From: an uncultured archaeon
GTDB taxonomy: Archaea > Asgardarchaeota > Lokiarchaeia > Sigyniarchaeales > SOKP01
NCBI GenBank assembly: GCA_964388035.1
Contig: CAYLZE010000042.1
Span: 1 to 39,748, forward strand
Reading direction: 5' to 3'
DNA: 39,748 nt
Under the pieces are notes generated by a model. That model worked only from the letters and a program-made list of their open reading frames with translations. It was not told where the DNA came from and did no database searches. A program made the position numbers and the translations under genes. This document shows positions 11,775 through 17,743 of this stretch, one piece after another. How positions within the stretch are numbered: the first letter of the stretch is position 1; each line of letters opens with the position of its first letter.

Positions 11775-12941
11775 TTATTTTCCCTTTTTCTTAAAATCTC
11801 CAATAACTTCCGTGTATTTTTTAACAGAAATCGTTGTGGGATTCCTTCTGAAGCTTAAGGGAATGTCGCCACTACAGCGAGAACATATAGTTGATTTTCT
11901 AGTCCATTCCCTGAACTCATCTCCATGAGCAGGATAATTGCATTTAGGACATAATACAATTTTACGTCCTTTATCTTCGGGATATGAGGGAAGTTTAAAG
12001 CAAAAAATACATTTAAAATCATCGATAGATAACACTCCCGCCTTGGGTTTATATTTATCATAATTTACTGCTTTAGATTTTGCTGTCTTAGTTTTGGTGC
12101 CACTGACCCTTGTTGGTTTTCTTGAGGGTTGCACTGTTCGGCTACTGGTTTTAGCTCTTGATGTTCTCGATGAAGTAGAAGTTCTTATTGTTCTAGTTGG
12201 GGGAGTAGATCTACTTCTCGTGGTCGGGTTTGCTCGCGCTGGTGTACTACTTACTTGGTCAATTTGTCTCCTTCGACGAGCAATATAATCGGATGAAACA
12301 CGTGGCATGGCACGTCTTGAACCAAATATTCCATGTCTAATTAATAAATAAACGCAAATGATAGAAAAGACTAATAAAAGAATGTCAAAATAATTTTGAG
12401 GATAAGCAGAATATGTCGGATTTAAAACAGGACTTAAAAAATTCACGATTTCTGCTTGGAATATTAAATAAAGTATCACTATTATAATTAAGATAATAGA
12501 ATATCCAATTGCAAATTTTCGCGCAATAATCGACCTGGTTTTATAAATGTAAACGAGGTTATATTCCTTAAAACATTTCCGTAGAATAGTAAGACCATAT
12601 AAAAGCCAGGGAAAGGCAAAAATTAATCCCCATAAACTCAAATAAAAAAATGAGAATCCATCGCCCAAAAGATTATCTCCTAAAAATCCCGTATAATAAC
12701 TCCAGAAATTGTAGAAAAACCCGAAAAGCAAGGGACCAAACAAAAAAAAAGGAGTATTATGTGGCGAATTATATTCCTTATAATGTTTTCTTTTTTCAAA
12801 ATACTTTAGTAAAAAAAGAATCCAAGCTCCAAGTAATAATACGGTAAAAAAAATATTAGTTGAATTAAATATAAAGAATCCAAGAATGACTGCAATAACT
12901 AAACAAATAAGAGAAAAAATAATAGTACGTTTTTTAAACAT
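11775..12941 (-). CDS. Polytopic membrane protein (~6 TM) with Ser/Thr/Arg-rich linker and C-terminal RING-variant zinc finger; putative membrane E3 ligase
   Basis: Six hydrophobic segments in the first ~205 aa. Motif C-x2-C-x16-C-x2-C-x4-H-x2-E-x3-W-x6-C-x2-C at about 11874-12011. The start ATG overlaps the JAMM stop (TAATG). Confidence 0.75.
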   Translation of the reverse strand: MFKKRTIIFSLICLVIAVILGFFIFNSTNIFFTVLLLGAWILFLLKYFEKRKHYKEYNSPHNTPFFLFGPLLFGFFYNFWSYYTGFLGDNLLGDGFSFFYLSLWGLIFAFPWLLYGLTILRKCFKEYNLVYIYKTRSIIARKFAIGYSIILIIIVILYLIFQAEIVNFLSPVLNPTYSAYPQNYFDILLLVFSIICVYLLIRHGIFGSRRAMPRVSSDYIARRRRQIDQVSSTPARANPTTRSRSTPPTRTIRTSTSSRTSRAKTSSRTVQPSRKPTRVSGTKTKTAKSKAVNYDKYKPKAGVLSIDDFKCIFCFKLPSYPEDKGRKIVLCPKCNYPAHGDEFREWTRKSTICSRCSGDIPLSFRRNPTTISVKKYTEVIGDFKKKGK

Positions 12942-13744
12942 TATTCTTCATCATATTCAAGGTAAATTGCTTTCCCATCTACTATGGGATTAATGAAGTC
13001 TATTAATTGGGGTAATACAGAAGGATCCAAAGCTCCTCTTATCTCAAAAGATATATTATGAAACTTTCTTAATTCTAAATTCACTTTAAAAATATCAAAT
13101 CCATAAGACCTCCCATCAATTTGAGTAGGATCAATTACCAATGCTACAGCGTTCTCCCAAAACTTCTGGTACCTTGAATGCGTGTCTAAATCTTCTTCGC
13201 TTAAAAAAAGGCCATAGCTAGGATGAGAATGATACCATCCACAGATAAATAATTTATCATTTTTAATTTCATTATATGCTCTTGTATAACTTTTATAATC
13301 CTTTATCTCGGCATTTAATGCCGTACCGTGCCCCATCGGATAGGCATCTTTGATGTATAACTTTTCATTATTCGTATCTAGTTCTCCCGCTAATAATCCA
13401 ATTACTTCTATCCACTGAGATTTTGGAATCTTTGCATTTGCATATTTTAATGAATGGCTCGCTATTTTTAATACGGGCTTAATATCGATGATTAGTCTCG
13501 AAGTATTTTTTACATTTTGTGGAGATTCTTTAATATTCATTTTATCTACGGAAGTAGGAATCATCTCGGTATCAATCAATGAAGAAACTTCATTAATCAA
13601 ATCATTCACTTCTAATTGCAATTCTTTATAGACTTCTTCAACGAGCTCTTTGGTCATGCGTTCCTTGATCTTTTGCTTAATCCTTTTTTTAATCTCTTCT
13701 TTATTAAATTCGCTGCCACTCACTAAATTCTCACCACTTCTCAT
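12941..13744 (-). CDS. JAMM/MPN+ metallo-isopeptidase (Rpn11/CSN5-like) with N-terminal extension
   Basis: EVIGLL, GWYHSHPSYGLFLSEEDLDTH (complete E-xn-HxH-x7-S-x2-D motif), ALVIDP. Confidence 0.93.
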   Translation of the reverse strand: MRSGENLVSGSEFNKEEIKKRIKQKIKERMTKELVEEVYKELQLEVNDLINEVSSLIDTEMIPTSVDKMNIKESPQNVKNTSRLIIDIKPVLKIASHSLKYANAKIPKSQWIEVIGLLAGELDTNNEKLYIKDAYPMGHGTALNAEIKDYKSYTRAYNEIKNDKLFICGWYHSHPSYGLFLSEEDLDTHSRYQKFWENAVALVIDPTQIDGRSYGFDIFKVNLELRKFHNISFEIRGALDPSVLPQLIDFINPIVDGKAIYLEYDEE

Positions 13745-14267
13745 TTGCGTATTTCTTTACTAAATGTTTAACTTTCTTTTCGAAATAATCACGTTTTTCC
13801 ATCATTTCTATTGCAGCTTTTTTGTTGAACACATCTTTTGGATTTATAAACAACCCTCTAGTATTTAACATGGCAATAATCGCTTGAATTACCGTTGTTA
13901 TAGTTTTAGATGGGCTCCATCCTCCTTTTTGACCAACTAAAGAAGGATCCACGAGACTAAGGCAGATATTCCTCTGACCGGGATATTCAGAGGGTTTTGG
14001 CCAAAAGTTGGGATGCCATATTGCGGTGTGAAGTCTAACAAAGGGAGGCTGATTTGGATAAGCTGCCGGGAACTTGATTTCTAATTTAAATATTCCTTTT
14101 TGATACGCGGTCCCTTTGGGTCCTTTGATAGCAACTGCGAGATGATCAATACTTTTATTTTTAGGATCAAACGGTTTCAATTGAATAATCGTTCCATTTT
14201 TGAGCATTTTCTTTAAAGCAGCAAAATCTTGTGATATTCTCGATGATCTTAAACTCATGATATCCAC
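13731..14267 (-). CDS. Ubiquitin-conjugating enzyme E2 (UBC fold)
   Basis: GPKGTAYQKGIFKLEIKFPAAYPNQPP, IWHPN, catalytic ICLS, WSPSKTI. Confidence 0.95.
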   Translation of the reverse strand: MDIMSLRSSRISQDFAALKKMLKNGTIIQLKPFDPKNKSIDHLAVAIKGPKGTAYQKGIFKLEIKFPAAYPNQPPFVRLHTAIWHPNFWPKPSEYPGQRNICLSLVDPSLVGQKGGWSPSKTITTVIQAIIAMLNTRGLFINPKDVFNKKAAIEMMEKRDYFEKKVKHLVKKYANEKW

Positions 14268-14342: not shown

Positions 14343-15569
14343 TTATGAAAGATGTAGAGTAACAAAAATTTGGTTTGCTTCCTTAAATCCCACCGCGGTA
14401 ATCAATTCTAACTCTCTTAATTGATTCTGAATTGGATTTAATTCCAAATCAATTTCTCTAATGTCGTTAAAATCCATGATTGTTAAAAGAGGTTCCATGT
14501 CCGGATCAAGACTAAATCCCATTTCCAATAATTTTTCTATTATTTTAGATGTAAGGTCCTTTTTAGAAATCTGAATGTCTACTCTTTTAACGGAGTTCCC
14601 GCATTGTAAGCAGTCCAGATTTCTCTTTTTCTCAACGGAATAAAGCTTTTGGGTCATTGCATTATATATGATATAGGATTTGGTAGGTTCCCCTAAAGCT
14701 TTATTTCCTCTCAACCAATGTAGAATTTTCACCGCTTCATGAGACTGCAATGAAGAAATCACAGCATTGATGGTTATTATTCCTGGGTCGTGTCGATCAA
14801 TTATTTTTACTATTTCATCGTCAGTAAATGGAGGGAGAAAATTATGTTTATTTACTAAGTTATTGGCATATTCTTTAAGATAACCAACGTCTTTAGAATT
14901 TTTTGGGTCTGGTTCTTTTTCAAATTGTTCTGCAAATGCCATGTTTGCTTTAAATACACAATGAATTCTTTTTCTTGGAATACCTACTACCGTACATGCC
15001 GCCATATCATCCATTTCTGCCTGGGGAAGGGGATTACATTCATAACAAGCATTTTCATAGGGAAAAACCGTATAAAGATGACCATGATATCCTGCTACAC
15101 CTCCATCTACCAATGGTTTTTTAAACCGCACGCATTGAGCGTTCAAGTTCAACCGTGCATTCATTGAATCAAGACCTCCAATAATTAAATCTGCTTTCTG
15201 ATAGAGAATAGGGGCCACTCTTTCTAATGAACTAAAATATCCCTCTATCTCTACATTTGGATTTATTCTTAATAAAGATCGCGCCGCAACCTTTGCCTTA
15301 GGTTCTCCCATTTTGGCGCCTGTAAAAAGTATTTGCCGATTCAAATTAGAATGTTCAATTATGTCTAGATCTACTAAGTCTAAATGGCCTACCCCGAGCA
15401 TGGTTAAATTTTTAGCAATTTCACACCCAAGTCCACCTACTCCCGCAATTAAGATACGCGAGTCTTTTATAATGCTTTGTGACCAACCTTCTAGTCTAAA
15501 TTGGCGATCATATAAATCTCGTTCTTCCGCGGTTAATTTATCACTAAAAAAATCTGAATCTTCCTTCAT
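14343..15569 (-). CDS. Ubiquitin-like activating enzyme E1 (ThiF adenylation domain with Uba2/Uba3-type catalytic-Cys insert)
   Basis: YDRQ, GVGGLG, DLDIIEHSNLNRQ, GLDSMNAR, zinc pairs CYEC and CLQC, catalytic ACTVVGIPRKRIHCV, PGIITINAVIS. Confidence 0.93.
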   Translation of the reverse strand: MKEDSDFFSDKLTAEERDLYDRQFRLEGWSQSIIKDSRILIAGVGGLGCEIAKNLTMLGVGHLDLVDLDIIEHSNLNRQILFTGAKMGEPKAKVAARSLLRINPNVEIEGYFSSLERVAPILYQKADLIIGGLDSMNARLNLNAQCVRFKKPLVDGGVAGYHGHLYTVFPYENACYECNPLPQAEMDDMAACTVVGIPRKRIHCVFKANMAFAEQFEKEPDPKNSKDVGYLKEYANNLVNKHNFLPPFTDDEIVKIIDRHDPGIITINAVISSLQSHEAVKILHWLRGNKALGEPTKSYIIYNAMTQKLYSVEKKRNLDCLQCGNSVKRVDIQISKKDLTSKIIEKLLEMGFSLDPDMEPLLTIMDFNDIREIDLELNPIQNQLRELELITAVGFKEANQIFVTLHLS

Positions 15570-15633: not shown

Positions 15634-15656
15634 AAAAAAAAAAATACTTAAAAAAA
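15634..15656 (-). terminator. Oligo-T tracts (T7 and T11 on the minus strand) just downstream of the Ubl gene; candidate archaeal terminator
   Basis: A-runs at 15634-15644 and 15650-15656 on the + strand. Archaeal terminators are U-rich, but the genome is AT-rich overall. Confidence 0.35.
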
Positions 15657-15666
15657 GGAAAAGTAA

Positions 15667-16014
15667 CTATCCTGCAGTGCTTGCAGGAATTAAAAGGACC
15701 TCGTCACCATTCTTAACATTATAATTTGATAAGGGTTGAGAATCATCCATAGTTACTCCGCCAGCAGATAAATGAAAGTCACTGGGATCGAGTCCAAAGA
15801 TATTACCAACCGTGCGCTTAATATCTCCTACTGAATTTCCATTATCAACAGATAATTTTTGTCTTTTTTCCCCAGGACCTACTGTGGATAAGAAATATAC
15901 ACCCATTTTTTCTCCTCCTGCAGATGCAGCAGGAGTTTTGGACTTCATTGCTGGAGCGGGAGTTTTCTCGTCTAATTCCTCATCAAATTCATCATCTTCA
16001 TTTTCAAAACTCAT
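15667..16014 (-). CDS. Ubiquitin-like beta-grasp modifier with acidic disordered N-terminal tail, ending -PASTAG
   Basis: Pattern KLSVDNGNSVGDIKRTV...FHLSAGGVTMDDSQPLSNYNVKNGDEVLL resembles ubiquitin (LEVEPSDTIENVK...[27 protein letters not shown]). Terminal Gly. First gene of the E1/E2 cluster. Confidence 0.88.
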   Translation of the reverse strand: MSFENEDDEFDEELDEKTPAPAMKSKTPAASAGGEKMGVYFLSTVGPGEKRQKLSVDNGNSVGDIKRTVGNIFGLDPSDFHLSAGGVTMDDSQPLSNYNVKNGDEVLLIPASTAG

Positions 16015-16174
16015 TTTTTAAACCTCTTTTTAATAATTAATTTGGATTGGTAATGATCTTATAACAACATGCATATTTAAATTTATGATTTTAGTTATAT
16101 TCATCAACAATGTTATTTAAGTTAATTATCTTATATATTATCAGAAACCTAATAAAATCTTTAATATTTTAACG

Positions 16175-17743
16175 ATGAAAGATAAAACACCCCCTAAATA
16201 CGAAATTAAGGATCAATCATCCATATCAAAGAGTATTTTAGAAAATGAACAATTAATAGAAAAAATTAAAGTAGAACGAGCGAAATTACAGTCCGAAAGA
16301 GAAGAATGGGAACAAGTTCTTAAAAAACTTCAGAACTATAATAAGACTATTGAAGATTTGGAAAAAGCACGCAAGCAAGGGGAAATAGAACTAAGAAATC
16401 TGGACAGTAAAAAAGAAGATTTAAATAATGATTTGGAGGAAATTCAAAAAAGAATTCAGGGGGAAAAAAAGAGGCTGGCACAAGGCACGGATTATGTAAA
16501 TGATCAAATTAAAGCAAAGAAGAAAGAATTAGAAGCACTCGATAAAGCAATTAATGAAAGAAATGAACGATTAAATGAAATAACCAAAGATTTTAAAAAG
16601 GAAAAAAAAGACCGGGAAAAAGAAAAGTCTATTGCTAAGACTCAAATCGAGGATATTAAGTCTAAAATTCCTAAATTGGAGAATATTGGAGAAAAACTAG
16701 AAAAGACCAAATTAGGTTTGGAAGATGATATCAAAAAATTAAAAAGTGAAAATGATCACCTTTTAGACGAAAGACAAAAGTTGAAAAAAGAAATAAATGA
16801 TATACAGAATACGATTTCCAACGAGAAAAAACTCATCGAGATTGAAAAAAGCAAAGTTAAAAATTATAGAGAAAAATTGAAGAAGAAAAATGACCAACTG
16901 AACGATCAATTTAAAGAAATAGCAAAGGAGAAGAAAAAATTAGATGATGAGCGAGATAAGATTAAGGACGCCCAAAAAGATTTAGAGAACAATAAAAAGC
17001 AAGAAGAAGCTAAATTAGGTCAAGTAAATTCAGAAATAAAAAATTTAGAGAAAAAGAAAGATTCTTTATTAAAAGATACTAACATTGCAGAGAAAAAAAT
17101 ACAAGATTCAAATAATCGATTGAAAGACTTAAAACGAGAAATAGATGATCTTTCCAATAAAAGAGATGATGTAAAAAAAGAATTATCGAATGTTCAAAAT
17201 ATGATCAATGATGAGAAGAAAAATATAGCGCAAGAAAGAGAAAAATTAAAGCAAGTGAGAGAGAAATTCATACAAAAAGATAAAGATTTAAATGATAAGT
17301 TCGATGATATCAATAAAAAAAAGAAGAAATTAAATAAAGTAAAGAATCAGGTGAAAAAAGAAAAGAATGAGTTAGAAAACACAAGAGCAACAGAAGAGGG
17401 AAAATTAAAACGAATTCATTCCGCTGTAAATGATTTAGAAAAGAAAAAGAATTCCCTAGAAAACGAGCGCAATAACTTGGAGAATAGAGTAAGAAAATTA
17501 AATAATGACTTGAAAGATATGGAGAAGAAGAAAGATAATATTGAGTCTAAAATCCGAGATCAAATACGACAAGTAGAAGCGAATAAAAATAAAGTCGAAA
17601 ATGAAAAACAATTAATTAAGAGAGAAAGGGATAAGTTAGAGCAAGAGAAGGCCCGGCTTAAGAAAGAACAAGAAAGATTTAAACAAGAAATTAAAAAATT
17701 AGATACCATTCCTAAATATAAAATCAGGTCAAAAACACCTTAA
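16175..17743 (+). CDS. Long K/E-rich coiled-coil protein with internal ~120-130 aa repeats
   Basis: Nearly continuous heptads with no globular or ATPase motif. Repeat units start near 16421, 16781 and 17171. Confidence 0.8.
   Translation: MKDKTPPKYEIKDQSSISKSILENEQLIEKIKVERAKLQSEREEWEQVLKKLQNYNKTIEDLEKARKQGEIELRNLDSKKEDLNNDLEEIQKRIQGEKKRLAQGTDYVNDQIKAKKKELEALDKAINERNERLNEITKDFKKEKKDREKEKSIAKTQIEDIKSKIPKLENIGEKLEKTKLGLEDDIKKLKSENDHLLDERQKLKKEINDIQNTISNEKKLIEIEKSKVKNYREKLKKKNDQLNDQFKEIAKEKKKLDDERDKIKDAQKDLENNKKQEEAKLGQVNSEIKNLEKKKDSLLKDTNIAEKKIQDSNNRLKDLKREIDDLSNKRDDVKKELSNVQNMINDEKKNIAQEREKLKQVREKFIQKDKDLNDKFDDINKKKKKLNKVKNQVKKEKNELENTRATEEGKLKRIHSAVNDLEKKKNSLENERNNLENRVRKLNNDLKDMEKKKDNIESKIRDQIRQVEANKNKVENEKQLIKRERDKLEQEKARLKKEQERFKQEIKKLDTIPKYKIRSKTP

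What the first reader, a model, noticed from the sequence alone, without database searches (positions are those of the whole stretch)
15667..16014. Non-canonical modifier: -STAG C-terminus and SUMO-like disordered N-terminal tail
Seen: the beta-grasp domain ends LLIPASTAG-stop, with a single terminal Gly, no LRLRGG and no propeptide. It is preceded by ~36 aa of acidic then Pro/Ala/Lys-rich sequence. Known: single-Gly ends occur in UFM1 (IIPRDRVG), ATG8 and ATG12, and flexible N-terminal tails carrying chain-forming Lys typify SUMO. The spacing IP-x4-G matches UFM1. Inference: a distinct Asgard Ubl class.
Basis: partly seen in the sequence, partly recalled or inferred. Interest (0 to 1): 0.72.

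Follow-up and report, generated by a model that had tools for sequence, protein, structure and literature searches.

The report
Asgard ubiquitin-like tag ending Ala-Gly
This small gene encodes the protein tag of a ubiquitin-type tagging operon in a Loki-type Asgard archaeon. It belongs to a large conserved subfamily that ends in Ala-Gly instead of ubiquitin's Gly-Gly and carries a conserved floppy N-terminal arm, and in one related Asgard family it sits in the same genomes as a normal Gly-Gly ubiquitin.

Summary
Window 15667-16014 (-) encodes a 115-aa protein: a roughly 36-aa disordered tail (acidic, then Lys/Thr/Pro-rich), a beta-grasp domain, and the ending LLIPASTAG-stop.

It is not a private variant. 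All 120 listed homologues end in Ala-Gly with 0-3 extra residues. All 53 copies lying directly before an E1 gene end [AS]STAG. The family profile hits 195 of 400 Asgard genomes.

The operon Ubl-E1-E2-JAMM-membrane RING is conserved, including in distant families.

By sequence and fold it is a ubiquitin-family member:
- Pfam ubiquitin matches 54 of 54 members, and Pfam Ufm1 matches none.
- The best structural matches are Caldiarchaeum ubiquitin, ubiquitin, ISG15 and NEDD8.
- The E1 is UBA2/UBA1/UBA3-like, not UBA5-like, and the E2 is a canonical HPN enzyme.

The UFM1 spacing and the SUMO-like tail are therefore analogies, not membership. "A distinct Asgard Ubl class" is supported. The family forms its own long-branch group. 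In the one genome checked in full (G067), and probably across its family, it coexists with a canonical Gly-Gly ubiquitin that has its own E1.

Most likely it is activated at Gly115 by the adjacent E1 and trimmed or removed by the JAMM protease. None of this has been tested biochemically.

This scan has already noted the same family in other genomes, with the same reading. I found no paper that describes the Ala-Gly ending.

The parts
15667..16014 (-). Gene for the 115-aa ubiquitin-family modifier (stop codon 15667-15669)
   Evidence: ORF list and sequence. Pfam PF00240 E 2e-6, 27.9 bits against a cut-off of 25.4. 658 homologues.
15907..16014 (-). N-terminal disordered tail, residues 1-36. It has an acidic half with an F-acidic-acidic-acidic-L motif (F10-L14), then two K-T-P motifs (K17, K26).
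   Evidence: pLDDT below 50 for residues 1-23. F10, E12, L14, K26, P28 and G34 are at least 90% conserved. The motifs are present in 116 of 120 and 120 of 120 homologues. Median tail length is 35 aa, with net charge -8 in the first half and +3 in the second. The Gly-Gly-type Asgard ubiquitins listed start at or within a few residues of the first strand and have no such tail.
15670..15906 (-). Beta-grasp domain, residues 37-115. It has a 3-residue-longer beta1-beta2 loop (the invariant T-x-G-P of STVGPGEK) and Ser83 at ubiquitin's Ile44 position.
   Evidence: AlphaFold model with pLDDT 82-95 over residues 31-110. Foldseek and VIA-align matches to ubiquitin, ISG15, NEDD8 and Caldiarchaeum ubiquitin. 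MAFFT alignment with ubiquitin.
15670..15690 (-). C-terminal tail I-P-A-S-T-A-G. Gly115 is the presumed site of adenylation and conjugation. Ala114 sits at ubiquitin's Gly75 position, Ala111 at Arg72 and Pro110 at Leu71.
   Evidence: Invariant I109, P110, A114 and G115. Gap-free alignment to ubiquitin's LVLRLRGG tail. 53 of 53 genes lying before an E1 end [AS]STAG plus 0-3 aa.
16022..16026 (-). Shine-Dalgarno-like GAGGT, 7 nt upstream of the ATG. It supports the long start that includes the tail.
   Evidence: Read from the sequence. Protein-level conservation of the tail in homologues.
14343..15569 (-). E1 (408 aa), single chain. Features: GVGGLG nucleotide loop, NLNRQ, two CxxC pairs (175, 320), presumed catalytic Cys192 and a C-terminal domain.
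   Evidence: Pfam ThiF E 5e-59. Best solved relatives are SAE2/UBA2 at 6e-37, UBA1 at 2e-34 and UBA3 at 1e-31 over residues 32-337, with UBA5 only at 3e-15. Motif positions. It lies directly downstream of the Ubl in 25 of 29 and about 50 of 78 other loci.
13731..14267 (-). E2 (178 aa) with an HPN motif (85-87) and a Cys in NICL (102)
   Evidence: Pfam UQ_con E 2e-26. Canonical E2s in the PDB. Motifs.
12941..13744 (-). JAMM/MPN+ metalloprotease (267 aa, HSHPSYGLFLSEED motif). It is the candidate maturase and deconjugase.
   Evidence: Pfam JAB E 1e-13. The best solved relative is Caldiarchaeum Rpn11-like protein at 2e-14, then CSN5 and Rpn11.
11775..12941 (-). Polytopic membrane protein (388 aa) with a basic S/T/R/K-rich linker and a C-terminal RING-like zinc finger (three CxxC pairs at 311, 331 and 353). 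It is the candidate E3.
   Evidence: Translation. Motifs. Conserved as the last gene of the operon. There is no Pfam hit for the finger, so the E3 role is inferred.

Best explanation
The gene encodes a lineage-specific member of the ubiquitin family, an 'Ala-Gly-type' ubiquitin-like modifier of Loki/Hel-type Asgard archaea.

Proposed mechanism:
1. The protein is made either mature, as here, or with 1-3 throw-away residues, or as tandem repeats.
2. The operon's Rpn11-like JAMM protease trims it after the Ala-Gly.
3. The adjacent single-chain canonical E1 adenylates Gly115 and takes the tag onto its catalytic cysteine.
4. The tag passes to the HPN-type E2.
5. The membrane-anchored RING-like protein helps transfer it to lysines of targets near the membrane.
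6. The JAMM protease also removes it again.

The Ala at the penultimate position, together with Pro-Ala-Ser-Thr in place of Leu-Arg-Leu-Arg, is a derived ubiquitin tail. It most likely makes this tag and its enzymes orthogonal to the Gly-Gly ubiquitin and second E1 found in the same genome in at least one related family. The conserved N-terminal arm is a disordered region carrying short motifs for partner binding, or acceptor lysines.

Shown here: family membership, fold, invariance of the terminus, operon conservation, and coexistence with a Gly-Gly type.
Inferred: every enzymatic step, the orthogonality, and the role of the tail.
For: Family and fold:
- Pfam ubiquitin matches 54 of 54 members.
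- The profile search of solved structures returns ubiquitin and Caldiarchaeum ubiquitin, aligned through to the last residues.

Terminus:
- Ala-Gly is present in 120 of 120 homologues and in 53 of 53 genes next to an E1.
- Extensions of 0-3 aa, and di- and tri-tandem forms in which each unit ends STAG, imply cleavage after the Gly.
- A divergent membrane paralogue whose UBL domain keeps I-P but lacks the Ala-Gly shows that the tail is specific to the free tag.

Operon:
- Ubl-E1-E2-JAMM-RING is conserved in own-family and distant-family genomes.
- The E1 is UBA2/UBA1/UBA3-like, and Cys192 falls at the SAE2 catalytic-Cys position by alignment offset.
- The E2 has HPN and Cys. The JAMM is nearest to CsRpn11.

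Parallel system:
- G067 carries the STAG operon and, about 90 kb away, a canonical ...TRTTGG ubiquitin beside a stretch 29% identical to this E1.
- In a tree the STAG group separates from the Gly-Gly types plus eukaryotic ubiquitin (supports 89/77 and 92/83).

Literature:
- CsRpn11 cleaves pro-CsUb and conjugates, and a penultimate Gly-to-Ala mutant is processed much more slowly (PMC6043591). An invariant Ala therefore implies a co-adapted protease.
- Bacterial BilA tags likewise have a single conserved Gly followed by variable residues, trimmed by a JAMM (PMC10557695).
Against: - There is no biochemical or expression evidence, and no RNA run holds the locus.
- The RING-like finger has no Pfam match.
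- Tree support for the separation is moderate, on 80 columns and with long branches.
- The second E1 beside the Gly-Gly ubiquitin was seen only as a tblastn hit within 1.5 kb.
- In the window's own genome the second Ubl (ending ...QAGGK) is not next to an E1.
- Orthogonality and the function of the tail rest on inference alone.
Confidence: 0.75

Rival explanations
1. It is an archaeal UFM1 homologue or ancestor: a single Gly, I-P-x4-G spacing and short pro-tails as in UFM1, working like UFMylation.
For: - The I-P-x4-G spacing and the 1-3-aa pro-tails are real.
- A 2026 paper reports structure-based 'Ufm1 homologues' in nine Asgard clades. Some of its hits are not full length or hold several hit regions, and its models were trimmed of long disordered termini (PMC12962969). 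That description could fit this family, which has fusions, tandem forms and a disordered tail.
Against: - Pfam Ufm1 matches 0 of 54 members at E up to 1 and 0 of 400 Asgard genomes at E up to 0.001.
- All 54 members match Pfam ubiquitin.
- Outside the family, the best sequence hits in 1.8 billion representatives are polyubiquitins.
- UFM1 is not among the top 50 Foldseek or VIA-align rows, nor the top 60 profile hits. Absence from these lists is not an exclusion.
- The E1 is UBA2/UBA1/UBA3-like and the E2 is a canonical HPN enzyme.
- Neither UFC1 nor UFSP was found in the own genome, which is 96.7% complete. For these two searches nothing rang in the control genomes either.
- The tail aligns with ubiquitin residue for residue.
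Confidence: 0.08
2. It works like SUMO. The flexible N-terminal tail carries the chain-forming lysines (the K of the K-T-P motifs), which the E2 recognises directly, so the tag builds chains through its own tail.
For: - The disordered N-tail has an almost invariant Lys26 in S-K-T-P, and usually two K-x-P motifs, sometimes three.
- The motifs are kept in the linkers of several fusion proteins just before the Ubl domain.
- 21 of 54 members give weak Rad60-SLD (SUMO-type) Pfam hits.
- The best E1 match is SAE2.
Against: - There is no psi-K-x-[DE] consensus in the tail (direct reading).
- Ubiquitin Pfam hits are stronger than the SUMO-type hits in the set, and the window's own protein has none at E up to 1.
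- Sequence identity to SUMO structures is 5-10%, against 20-26% to ubiquitin-type ones.
- The operon has one E1 gene, not a heterodimer pair, and a JAMM rather than a Ulp-type protease.
- T-P could equally be a phosphorylation site or a binding motif.
Confidence: 0.12
3. It is not conjugated. It is a ubiquitin-like domain protein or sulphur-carrier-type protein (some sources name relatives 'molybdopterin converting factor small subunit'), and the Ala-Gly end reflects loss of conjugation.
For: - JGI names for three relatives.
- In Caldiarchaeum a penultimate Ala slows JAMM processing (PMC6043591).
- A non-conjugatable UBL paralogue exists in related clusters.
Against: - The terminal Gly is invariant, and the extensions after it are short and variable, which is the pattern of a processed reactive end.
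- The gene is tightly linked to an E1 with a catalytic-Cys region, an E2, a JAMM and a RING-like protein.
- Only 3 of 54 members give weak ThiS hits.
- Single-Gly tags such as UFM1, ATG8, ATG12 and BilA are all activated by E1s (established knowledge; PMC10557695).
Confidence: 0.04
4. It is a private variant or an assembly error of a Gly-Gly ubiquitin.
For: None found.
Against: - 120 of 120 homologues end in Ala-Gly, and the family occurs in 195 of 400 genomes.
- An independent contig shows identical sequence across the stop codon.
Confidence: 0.01

Closest known systems
Caldiarchaeum subterraneum ubiquitin system (CsUb, E1, E2, small RING, CsRpn11; PMC5654768, PMC6043591)
   Same: - An archaeal operon of a ubiquitin-family tag, a single-chain E1, a UBC-type E2, a RING-type protein and an Rpn11-like JAMM.
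- The tag is often made with a short C-terminal extension.
- CsUb is the top Foldseek match and CsRpn11 is the top match of the JAMM.
   Different: - CsUb ends Gly-Gly and has no N-terminal arm.
- Its RING protein is small and soluble.
- Here the end is Ala-Gly, the tag has a conserved 35-aa arm, a longer beta1-beta2 loop and Ser at the Ile44 position, and the RING-like protein is polytopic.
Gly-Gly ubiquitins of other Asgard archaea (Helarchaeia system reconstituted in bioRxiv 10.1101/2023.07.25.550441; Heimdall/Odin ubiquitin in PMC9192718)
   Same: - The same phylum and the same kind of E1/E2/RING cascade.
- The 'Ub region' described for Lokiarchaeota is probably this operon (inference).
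   Different: - Those tags end Gly-Gly, with or without extra residues, and have no long N-terminal tail.
- They group with eukaryotic ubiquitin in the tree, away from the STAG group.
- In genome G067 both types occur together.
NEDD8
   Same: - Ala at the position of ubiquitin Arg72, which is the residue that lets the E1s tell NEDD8 from ubiquitin (established knowledge; alignment).
- A UBA3-like single catalytic E1 architecture.
- A parallel pathway alongside ubiquitin.
   Different: - NEDD8 ends Gly-Gly, keeps Ile44 and has no N-tail.
- Its E1 is a heterodimer.
UFM1 / ATG8 / ATG12 (eukaryotic single-Gly modifiers)
   Same: - A single reactive C-terminal Gly preceded by a non-Gly residue.
- UFM1 also has I-P four residues before that penultimate residue, and a 2-aa pro-tail.
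   Different: - They use different enzyme types: UBA5/UFC1/UFSP or ATG7/ATG3/ATG10/ATG4.
- There is no sequence-profile link.
- Here the enzymes are canonical ubiquitin-type.
Bacterial BilA/BilABCD ubiquitin-like systems (PMC10557695)
   Same: One universally conserved Gly followed by a few non-conserved residues, trimmed by an operon-encoded JAMM, then an E1 and an E2.
   Different: - The bacterial E1 has an inactive plus an active adenylation domain.
- There is no RING.
- It works in an anti-phage context.
- The tags are often two-domain.
SUMO
   Same: A flexible N-terminal tail with lysines. The best E1 hit is SAE2.
   Different: - SUMO ends Gly-Gly.
- It has a psi-K-x-E chain site, a heterodimeric E1 and Ulp/SENP cysteine proteases.
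- Its structures share much lower identity with the model.

Membership tests
Ubiquitin family (Pfam PF00240, beta-grasp protein modifiers) | Match to the family profile above the curated cut-off | tested here: met
   27.9 bits against a cut-off of 25.4 for this protein. 54 of 54 family members match, best E 7e-9.
Ubiquitin family (Pfam PF00240, beta-grasp protein modifiers) | Beta-grasp fold | tested here: met
Ubiquitin family (Pfam PF00240, beta-grasp protein modifiers) | A reactive C-terminal Gly, free or exposed by trimming | tested here: met
   Gly115 is the last residue. It is invariant in 120 of 120 homologues, followed by 0-3 variable residues.
Ubiquitin family (Pfam PF00240, beta-grasp protein modifiers) | Encoded or working with an E1 and an E2 | tested here: met
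   E1 and E2 lie directly downstream here and in most related loci.
Ubiquitin family (Pfam PF00240, beta-grasp protein modifiers) | Covalent attachment to target lysines | not testable with these tools
   This needs biochemistry or proteomics.
Ubiquitin proper (eukaryotic, Caldiarchaeum and Gly-Gly Asgard ubiquitin) | C-terminal Gly-Gly | tested here: not met
   The end is Ala-Gly. Ala114 aligns with Gly75 without a gap.
Ubiquitin proper (eukaryotic, Caldiarchaeum and Gly-Gly Asgard ubiquitin) | Ile44-centred hydrophobic patch | tested here: not met
   Ser83, conserved in at least 90% of members, aligns with Ile44. The Leu8 loop is 3 residues longer. This is by alignment only, with no structure superposition at residue level.
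UFM1 system | Match to the Ufm1 profile (PF03671) | tested here: not met
   0 of 54 members at E up to 1. No match in the own genome. 0 of 400 Asgard genomes at E up to 0.001.
UFM1 system | Fold closer to UFM1 than to ubiquitin | tested here: inconclusive
   UFM1 chains are not among the rows shown by Foldseek or VIA-align. An unlisted family is not excluded.
UFM1 system | UBA5-type E1 | tested here: not met
   UBA2 at 6e-37, UBA1 at 2e-34 and UBA3 at 1e-31, against UBA5 at 3e-15, which covers the adenylation core only.
UFM1 system | UFC1-type E2 (no HPN) | tested here: not met
   UQ_con E 2e-26 with HPN present. No UFC1 profile match in the own genome.
UFM1 system | UFSP cysteine protease | tested here: inconclusive
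   No Peptidase_C78 match in the own genome, but nothing rang in the control genomes either. The operon protease is a JAMM.
UFM1 system | A single Gly after a non-Gly residue, I-P-x4-G spacing, and a short pro-tail | tested here: met
IPASTAG here. 1-3-aa tails occur in 45 of 120 relatives.
SUMO | Match to the SUMO-type profile (PF11976) | tested here: inconclusive
   21 of 54 members match at E up to 1, best 7e-5. This protein has no hit at E up to 1.
SUMO | Gly-Gly end | tested here: not met
   The end is Ala-Gly.
SUMO | Flexible N-terminal tail | tested here: met
   pLDDT below 50 for residues 1-23.
SUMO | A psi-K-x-[DE] chain-forming site in the tail | tested here: not met
   The tail lysines sit in E-K-T-P, M-K-S-K-T-P and E-K-M contexts.
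NEDD8 | Ala at position 72 | tested here: met
   Ala111 aligns with ubiquitin Arg72.
NEDD8 | Gly-Gly end and Ile44 | tested here: not met
   Ala-Gly end, and Ser83 at the Ile44 position.
Bacterial BilA-type Ubl | One conserved Gly, a variable extension, and a JAMM in the operon | tested here: met
   The description of BilA is from PMC10557695.
Bacterial BilA-type Ubl | E1 with an inactive plus an active adenylation domain, and no RING | tested here: not met
   Pfam finds a single ThiF region in the 408-aa E1, and a RING-like gene is present in the operon.

The most novel reading that the evidence does not exclude
Before eukaryotes arose, Loki/Hel-type Asgard archaea already ran at least two mutually insulated ubiquitin-type pathways in one cell. 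One is a Gly-Gly ubiquitin with its own E1. The other is this Ala-Gly tag with its own E1, E2, JAMM and membrane RING. The penultimate Ala, with Pro-Ala-Ser-Thr before it, would act as the insulating code read by E1 and protease. The conserved acidic/K-T-P arm would act as a built-in handle: a chain acceptor, an E3-linker binder or an unfolding initiation site. This would be an archaeal counterpart of the ubiquitin/NEDD8/SUMO split, invisible to di-glycine remnant proteomics.
Probability: 0.3. Interest if true: 0.72.

Novelty: new variant of a known kind. Interest (0 to 1): 0.55.

Why it matters
- Asgard ubiquitin operons are used to reconstruct how eukaryotic ubiquitin signalling arose. The tag of the main Loki-type operon is treated in the literature simply as 'ubiquitin'.
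- If that tag always ends Ala-Gly, lacks the Ile44 patch and carries a conserved arm, results from Gly-Gly systems cannot simply be carried over to it.
- Heterologous constructs cut 'after GG' would be wrong for this tag.
- Di-glycine remnant proteomics would miss its conjugates. Trypsin would leave about 14 residues on the target lysine, because the last Lys or Arg is K101.
- Coexistence with a Gly-Gly ubiquitin and a second E1 makes a concrete question testable: did parallel, insulated Ubl pathways exist before eukaryogenesis?

Tried and rejected
Genomic context was taken from the genome search, the fetch from genomes and the search for related loci instead.
- No RNA holder was listed for the locus, so nothing can be said about expression. 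Laying contigs gave only a 313-nt independent confirmation of the 3' end.
- UFM1 does not appear in the rows shown by Foldseek (top 50), VIA-align wide (top 50) or the profile search of PDB sequences (top 60). This is not an exclusion.
- The supplementary files of PMC12962969 are not held. I could not check whether its 'Asgard Ufm1 homologues' are this family.
- Literature searches for an Ala-Gly or single-Gly Asgard ubiquitin found no description. Two searches failed on a too-short term. Subscription journals are not covered.
- UFC1 and UFSP profile searches of the own genome were blank, but nothing rang in the controls either.
- I did not map E1 or JAMM residues that contact the tail. I could not do this reliably without a complex model.
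The script crashed before using it. One search repeated the work from locus references only.
- Considered and rejected: a start at Met37 without the tail. That Met is not conserved in relatives, the tail is conserved at protein level, and a GAGGT site sits before the long start.
Full report
**1. Observation**

Window 15667-16014 on the minus strand is an ORF of 115 codons whose product ends LLIPASTAG, followed by a stop. A GAGGT site lies 7 nt before the ATG. A contig from a different sequencing run covers 15650-15962 with no difference, so the stop codon is not an assembly artefact.

The first 36 residues are acidic (10 D/E among the first 16) and then rich in K, T, P and A. AlphaFold, run with a 54-sequence alignment, gives pLDDT below 50 for residues 1-23. 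It gives a confident beta-grasp (pLDDT 82-95) from about residue 36 to 110.

**2. Not a private variant**

A search of 5.8 billion proteins found 658 relatives. The named ones come from Promethearchaeota, Lokiarchaeota and Helarchaeota MAGs.

- All 120 listed relatives end in Ala-Gly: ASTAG in 112, SSTAG in 6 and ASQAG in 2.
- They carry 0 extra residues in 75, 1 in 12, 2 in 30 and 3 in 3.
- In the alignment, I109, P110, A114 and G115 are invariant.
- The tail is conserved too. Its median length is 35 aa, with net charge -8 in its first half and +3 in its second. An F-acidic-acidic-acidic-L motif occurs in 116 of 120, and an [STAE]-K-[TE]-P motif in 120 of 120, usually with two K-x-P motifs.
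- A profile of the family hits 195 of 400 genomes of the Asgard phylum at E 1e-35 to 1e-54. These include 119 of 134 genomes of the window's own family and most genomes of about ten further families. Other families have none.
- Record titles name Promethearchaeota/Promethearchaeia, Helarchaeota, Sigynarchaeum and, by the submitters' labels, some Hermod-, Hod- and Odinarchaeota.

**3. Context**

The gene is the first of five co-oriented genes:

| Gene | Size | Features |
|---|---|---|
| Tag | 115 aa | This finding |
| E1 | 408 aa | ThiF E 5e-59, GVGGLG, NLNRQ, two CxxC pairs, Cys192 |
| E2 | 178 aa | UQ_con E 2e-26, HPN, Cys102 |
| JAMM | 267 aa | JAB E 1e-13, H-x-H-x7-S-x2-D |
| Membrane protein | 388 aa | Polytopic, basic linker, RING-like finger |

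- The E1's best solved relatives are SAE2/UBA2 (6e-37), UBA1 (2e-34) and UBA3 (1e-31, over residues 32-337). UBA5 scores only 3e-15.
- By the offset of the SAE2 alignment, Cys192 falls at the SAE2 catalytic cysteine. The SAE2 position is from general knowledge.
- The JAMM is nearest to the Caldiarchaeum Rpn11-like protease, then CSN5 and Rpn11.
- In 25 of 29 loci from other genomes the tag is followed at about 100 nt by the E1.
- In 78 further loci the full order tag-E1-E2-JAMM-RING recurs about 50 times, and also in distant families (L035, L036 and L037).
- All 53 tags that lie directly before an E1 end [AS]STAG plus 0-3 residues.

**4. What family it is**

- Pfam ubiquitin matches this protein above the curated cut-off, and matches 54 of 54 family members. 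Pfam Ufm1 matches none at E up to 1. The SUMO-type Rad60-SLD profile matches 21 of 54 weakly.
- Outside the family, the best hits among 1.8 billion representatives are eukaryotic polyubiquitins.
- The family profile finds ubiquitin and the Caldiarchaeum ubiquitin entries, aligned up to the last residues.
- Foldseek ranks Caldiarchaeum ubiquitin first (E 3e-8, 26% identity), followed by ubiquitin variants, ISG15 and NEDD8.
- A MAFFT alignment with a eukaryotic ubiquitin unit needs no gap in the tail. It pairs G115 with G76, A114 with G75, T113 with R74, S112 with L73, A111 with R72 and P110 with L71.
- The same alignment puts the nearly invariant Ser83 at Ile44. It shows a beta1-beta2 loop three residues longer, which holds the invariant T-x-G-P.

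The protein is thus a ubiquitin-family member with a derived ubiquitin-length tail. It is not ubiquitin proper.

**5. UFM1 and SUMO**

- No profile link to UFM1 exists. There are 0 matches among 54 members, none in the own genome and none in 400 Asgard genomes.
- The enzymes are of the canonical ubiquitin type. No UFC1 or UFSP profile match was found in the 96.7%-complete genome. Those two searches had no positive control.
- One caveat: PMC12962969 reports structure-based 'Ufm1 homologues' in nine Asgard clades. It notes hits that are not full length or that hold several hit regions, and its models were trimmed of long disordered termini. I could not see its accessions, so it may or may not concern this family. 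If it does, my tests argue that ubiquitin is the nearer relative.
- The SUMO analogy is limited to having a flexible tail with lysines. There is no psi-K-x-E site.

**6. A separate class beside Gly-Gly ubiquitin**

- Searching the phylum with Pfam ubiquitin shows that families lacking the STAG family mostly do have ubiquitin-like genes.
- Those I read end Gly-Gly with 0-10 extra residues. They start at or within a few residues of the first strand and have no long N-terminal tail.
- Family f16 scores on both searches: 19 of 22 genomes for the STAG profile and 21 of 22 for Pfam ubiquitin. I checked both loci in one genome.
- The single-contig genome G067 has the STAG operon near 3.886 Mb. Near 3.977 Mb it has a ...TRTTGG ubiquitin beside a stretch 29% identical to this E1.
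- In a maximum-likelihood tree of 30 domains, the 20 STAG sequences group together (89/77) on a long stem. The Gly-Gly Asgard tags group with eukaryotic ubiquitin (92/83). Support is moderate, because the sequences are short.
- A third kind, ending ...RSIAG plus an extension and lying beside its own E1 and E2, groups with the Gly-Gly types. The Gly-to-Ala change at the penultimate position therefore seems to have arisen more than once.
- The window's own genome holds a second Ubl ending ...QAGGK. It also holds six further ThiF-family loci and two further E2-like loci.

**7. How it most likely works**

Shown here:
- an invariant reactive Gly followed by short, variable extensions;
- di- and tri-tandem forms in which every unit, with its own arm, ends STAG;
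- a membrane paralogue in related clusters whose UBL domain keeps I-P but lacks the Ala-Gly.

These are the marks of a processed, conjugated end.

Inferred:
- The JAMM trims precursors and removes the tag, as CsRpn11 does (PMC5654768, PMC6043591).
- The E1 adenylates Gly115 and forms a thioester. The E2 and the membrane RING-like protein then pass the tag to lysines of targets near the membrane.
- In Caldiarchaeum a penultimate Gly-to-Ala mutant is cleaved much more slowly by CsRpn11 (PMC6043591). An invariant Ala therefore implies a co-adapted protease. Together with Ala at the Arg72 position, as in NEDD8, it probably insulates this pathway from the Gly-Gly pathway.

The arm's function is open. 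Candidates are acceptor lysines in K-T-P, phosphorylation at T-P, binding of the acidic half to the basic linker of the RING protein, or an unfolding initiation site.

**8. Novelty**

- Asgard and Caldiarchaeum ubiquitin operons are known.
- The papers I could read describe Gly-Gly tags or simply call the Loki tag 'ubiquitin'.
- None of my searches found a description of the Ala-Gly end or the conserved arm.
- I therefore rate it a new variant of a known kind.
- This scan has already flagged the same family in several other genomes, and follow-up agents reached the same reading. Those are unchecked AI notes, not independent evidence. My conclusions rest on the calls cited above.

Noticed in passing
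L046-L118, minus-strand gene about 0.1-1.8 kb from the tag (for example L050 near 6371); protein P0250: Many related clusters hold a divergent protein of about 270-280 aa. P0250, the one read in full, has an N-terminal membrane segment. The C-terminal UBL domain is 26-36% identical to the tag, keeps I-P and ends ...IPSRKEKN with no Ala-Gly, so it looks like a non-conjugatable membrane UBL protein. It is absent from this window.
   Followed up: partly
P0121, P0122, P0271 (tandem forms); P0126-P0147, P0272-P0283 (fusions): - The STAG domain also occurs as di- and tri-tandem repeats, each unit with its own arm.
- It also occurs as the extreme C-terminal module of VWA, HerA-like ATPase, zinc-ribbon/coiled-coil and roadblock-like proteins, nearly always keeping ...STAG (variants SRAG, SHAG, SNAG) plus 0-7 residues.
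- Whole proteins may therefore be attachable.
   Followed up: partly
L119 1462-1728 (-), L120 1483-1734 (+): Two genomes of another family in the same class carry a more ubiquitin-like tag ending ...VVRSIAG plus 3-8 residues, next to its own E1 (and an E2 in L119). In the tree it groups with the Gly-Gly types, which suggests an independent Gly-to-Ala change.
   Followed up: partly
L138 (G067:C1:3976756-3976953), with L037 (same genome, about 3.886 Mb): One single-contig genome holds both the STAG operon and a canonical ...TRTTGG ubiquitin beside a second E1-like gene, about 90 kb apart.
   Followed up: partly
L001 1486-1740 (-) = own genome contig C33: The own genome has a second ubiquitin-like ORF of 84 aa ending ...TQAGGK. 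It is not next to an E1; the nearest ThiF-family gene is about 12 kb away.
   Followed up: partly
L003 4141-4680 (+) and 5457-7043 (-) = own genome contig C38: A second E2 gene is split by an in-frame TAG into ORFs of 66 and 99 aa, with HPN and Cys in the second. It lies beside a 528-aa E1 with a long insert. This could be a pseudogene, a frameshift or a read-through.
   Followed up: no
L004 759-3957 (-) = own genome contig C13: A third cluster holds an E2/UEV-like protein (189 aa), a short E1 (302 aa), a short JAMM (163 aa) and a 302-aa P-loop protein. No Ubl ORF of 60 aa or more lies beside it.
   Followed up: no
window 16175-17743 (+): A 522-aa, almost purely coiled-coil K/E-rich protein is transcribed divergently from the tag gene. 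It gives only weak coiled-coil Pfam hits.
   Followed up: no
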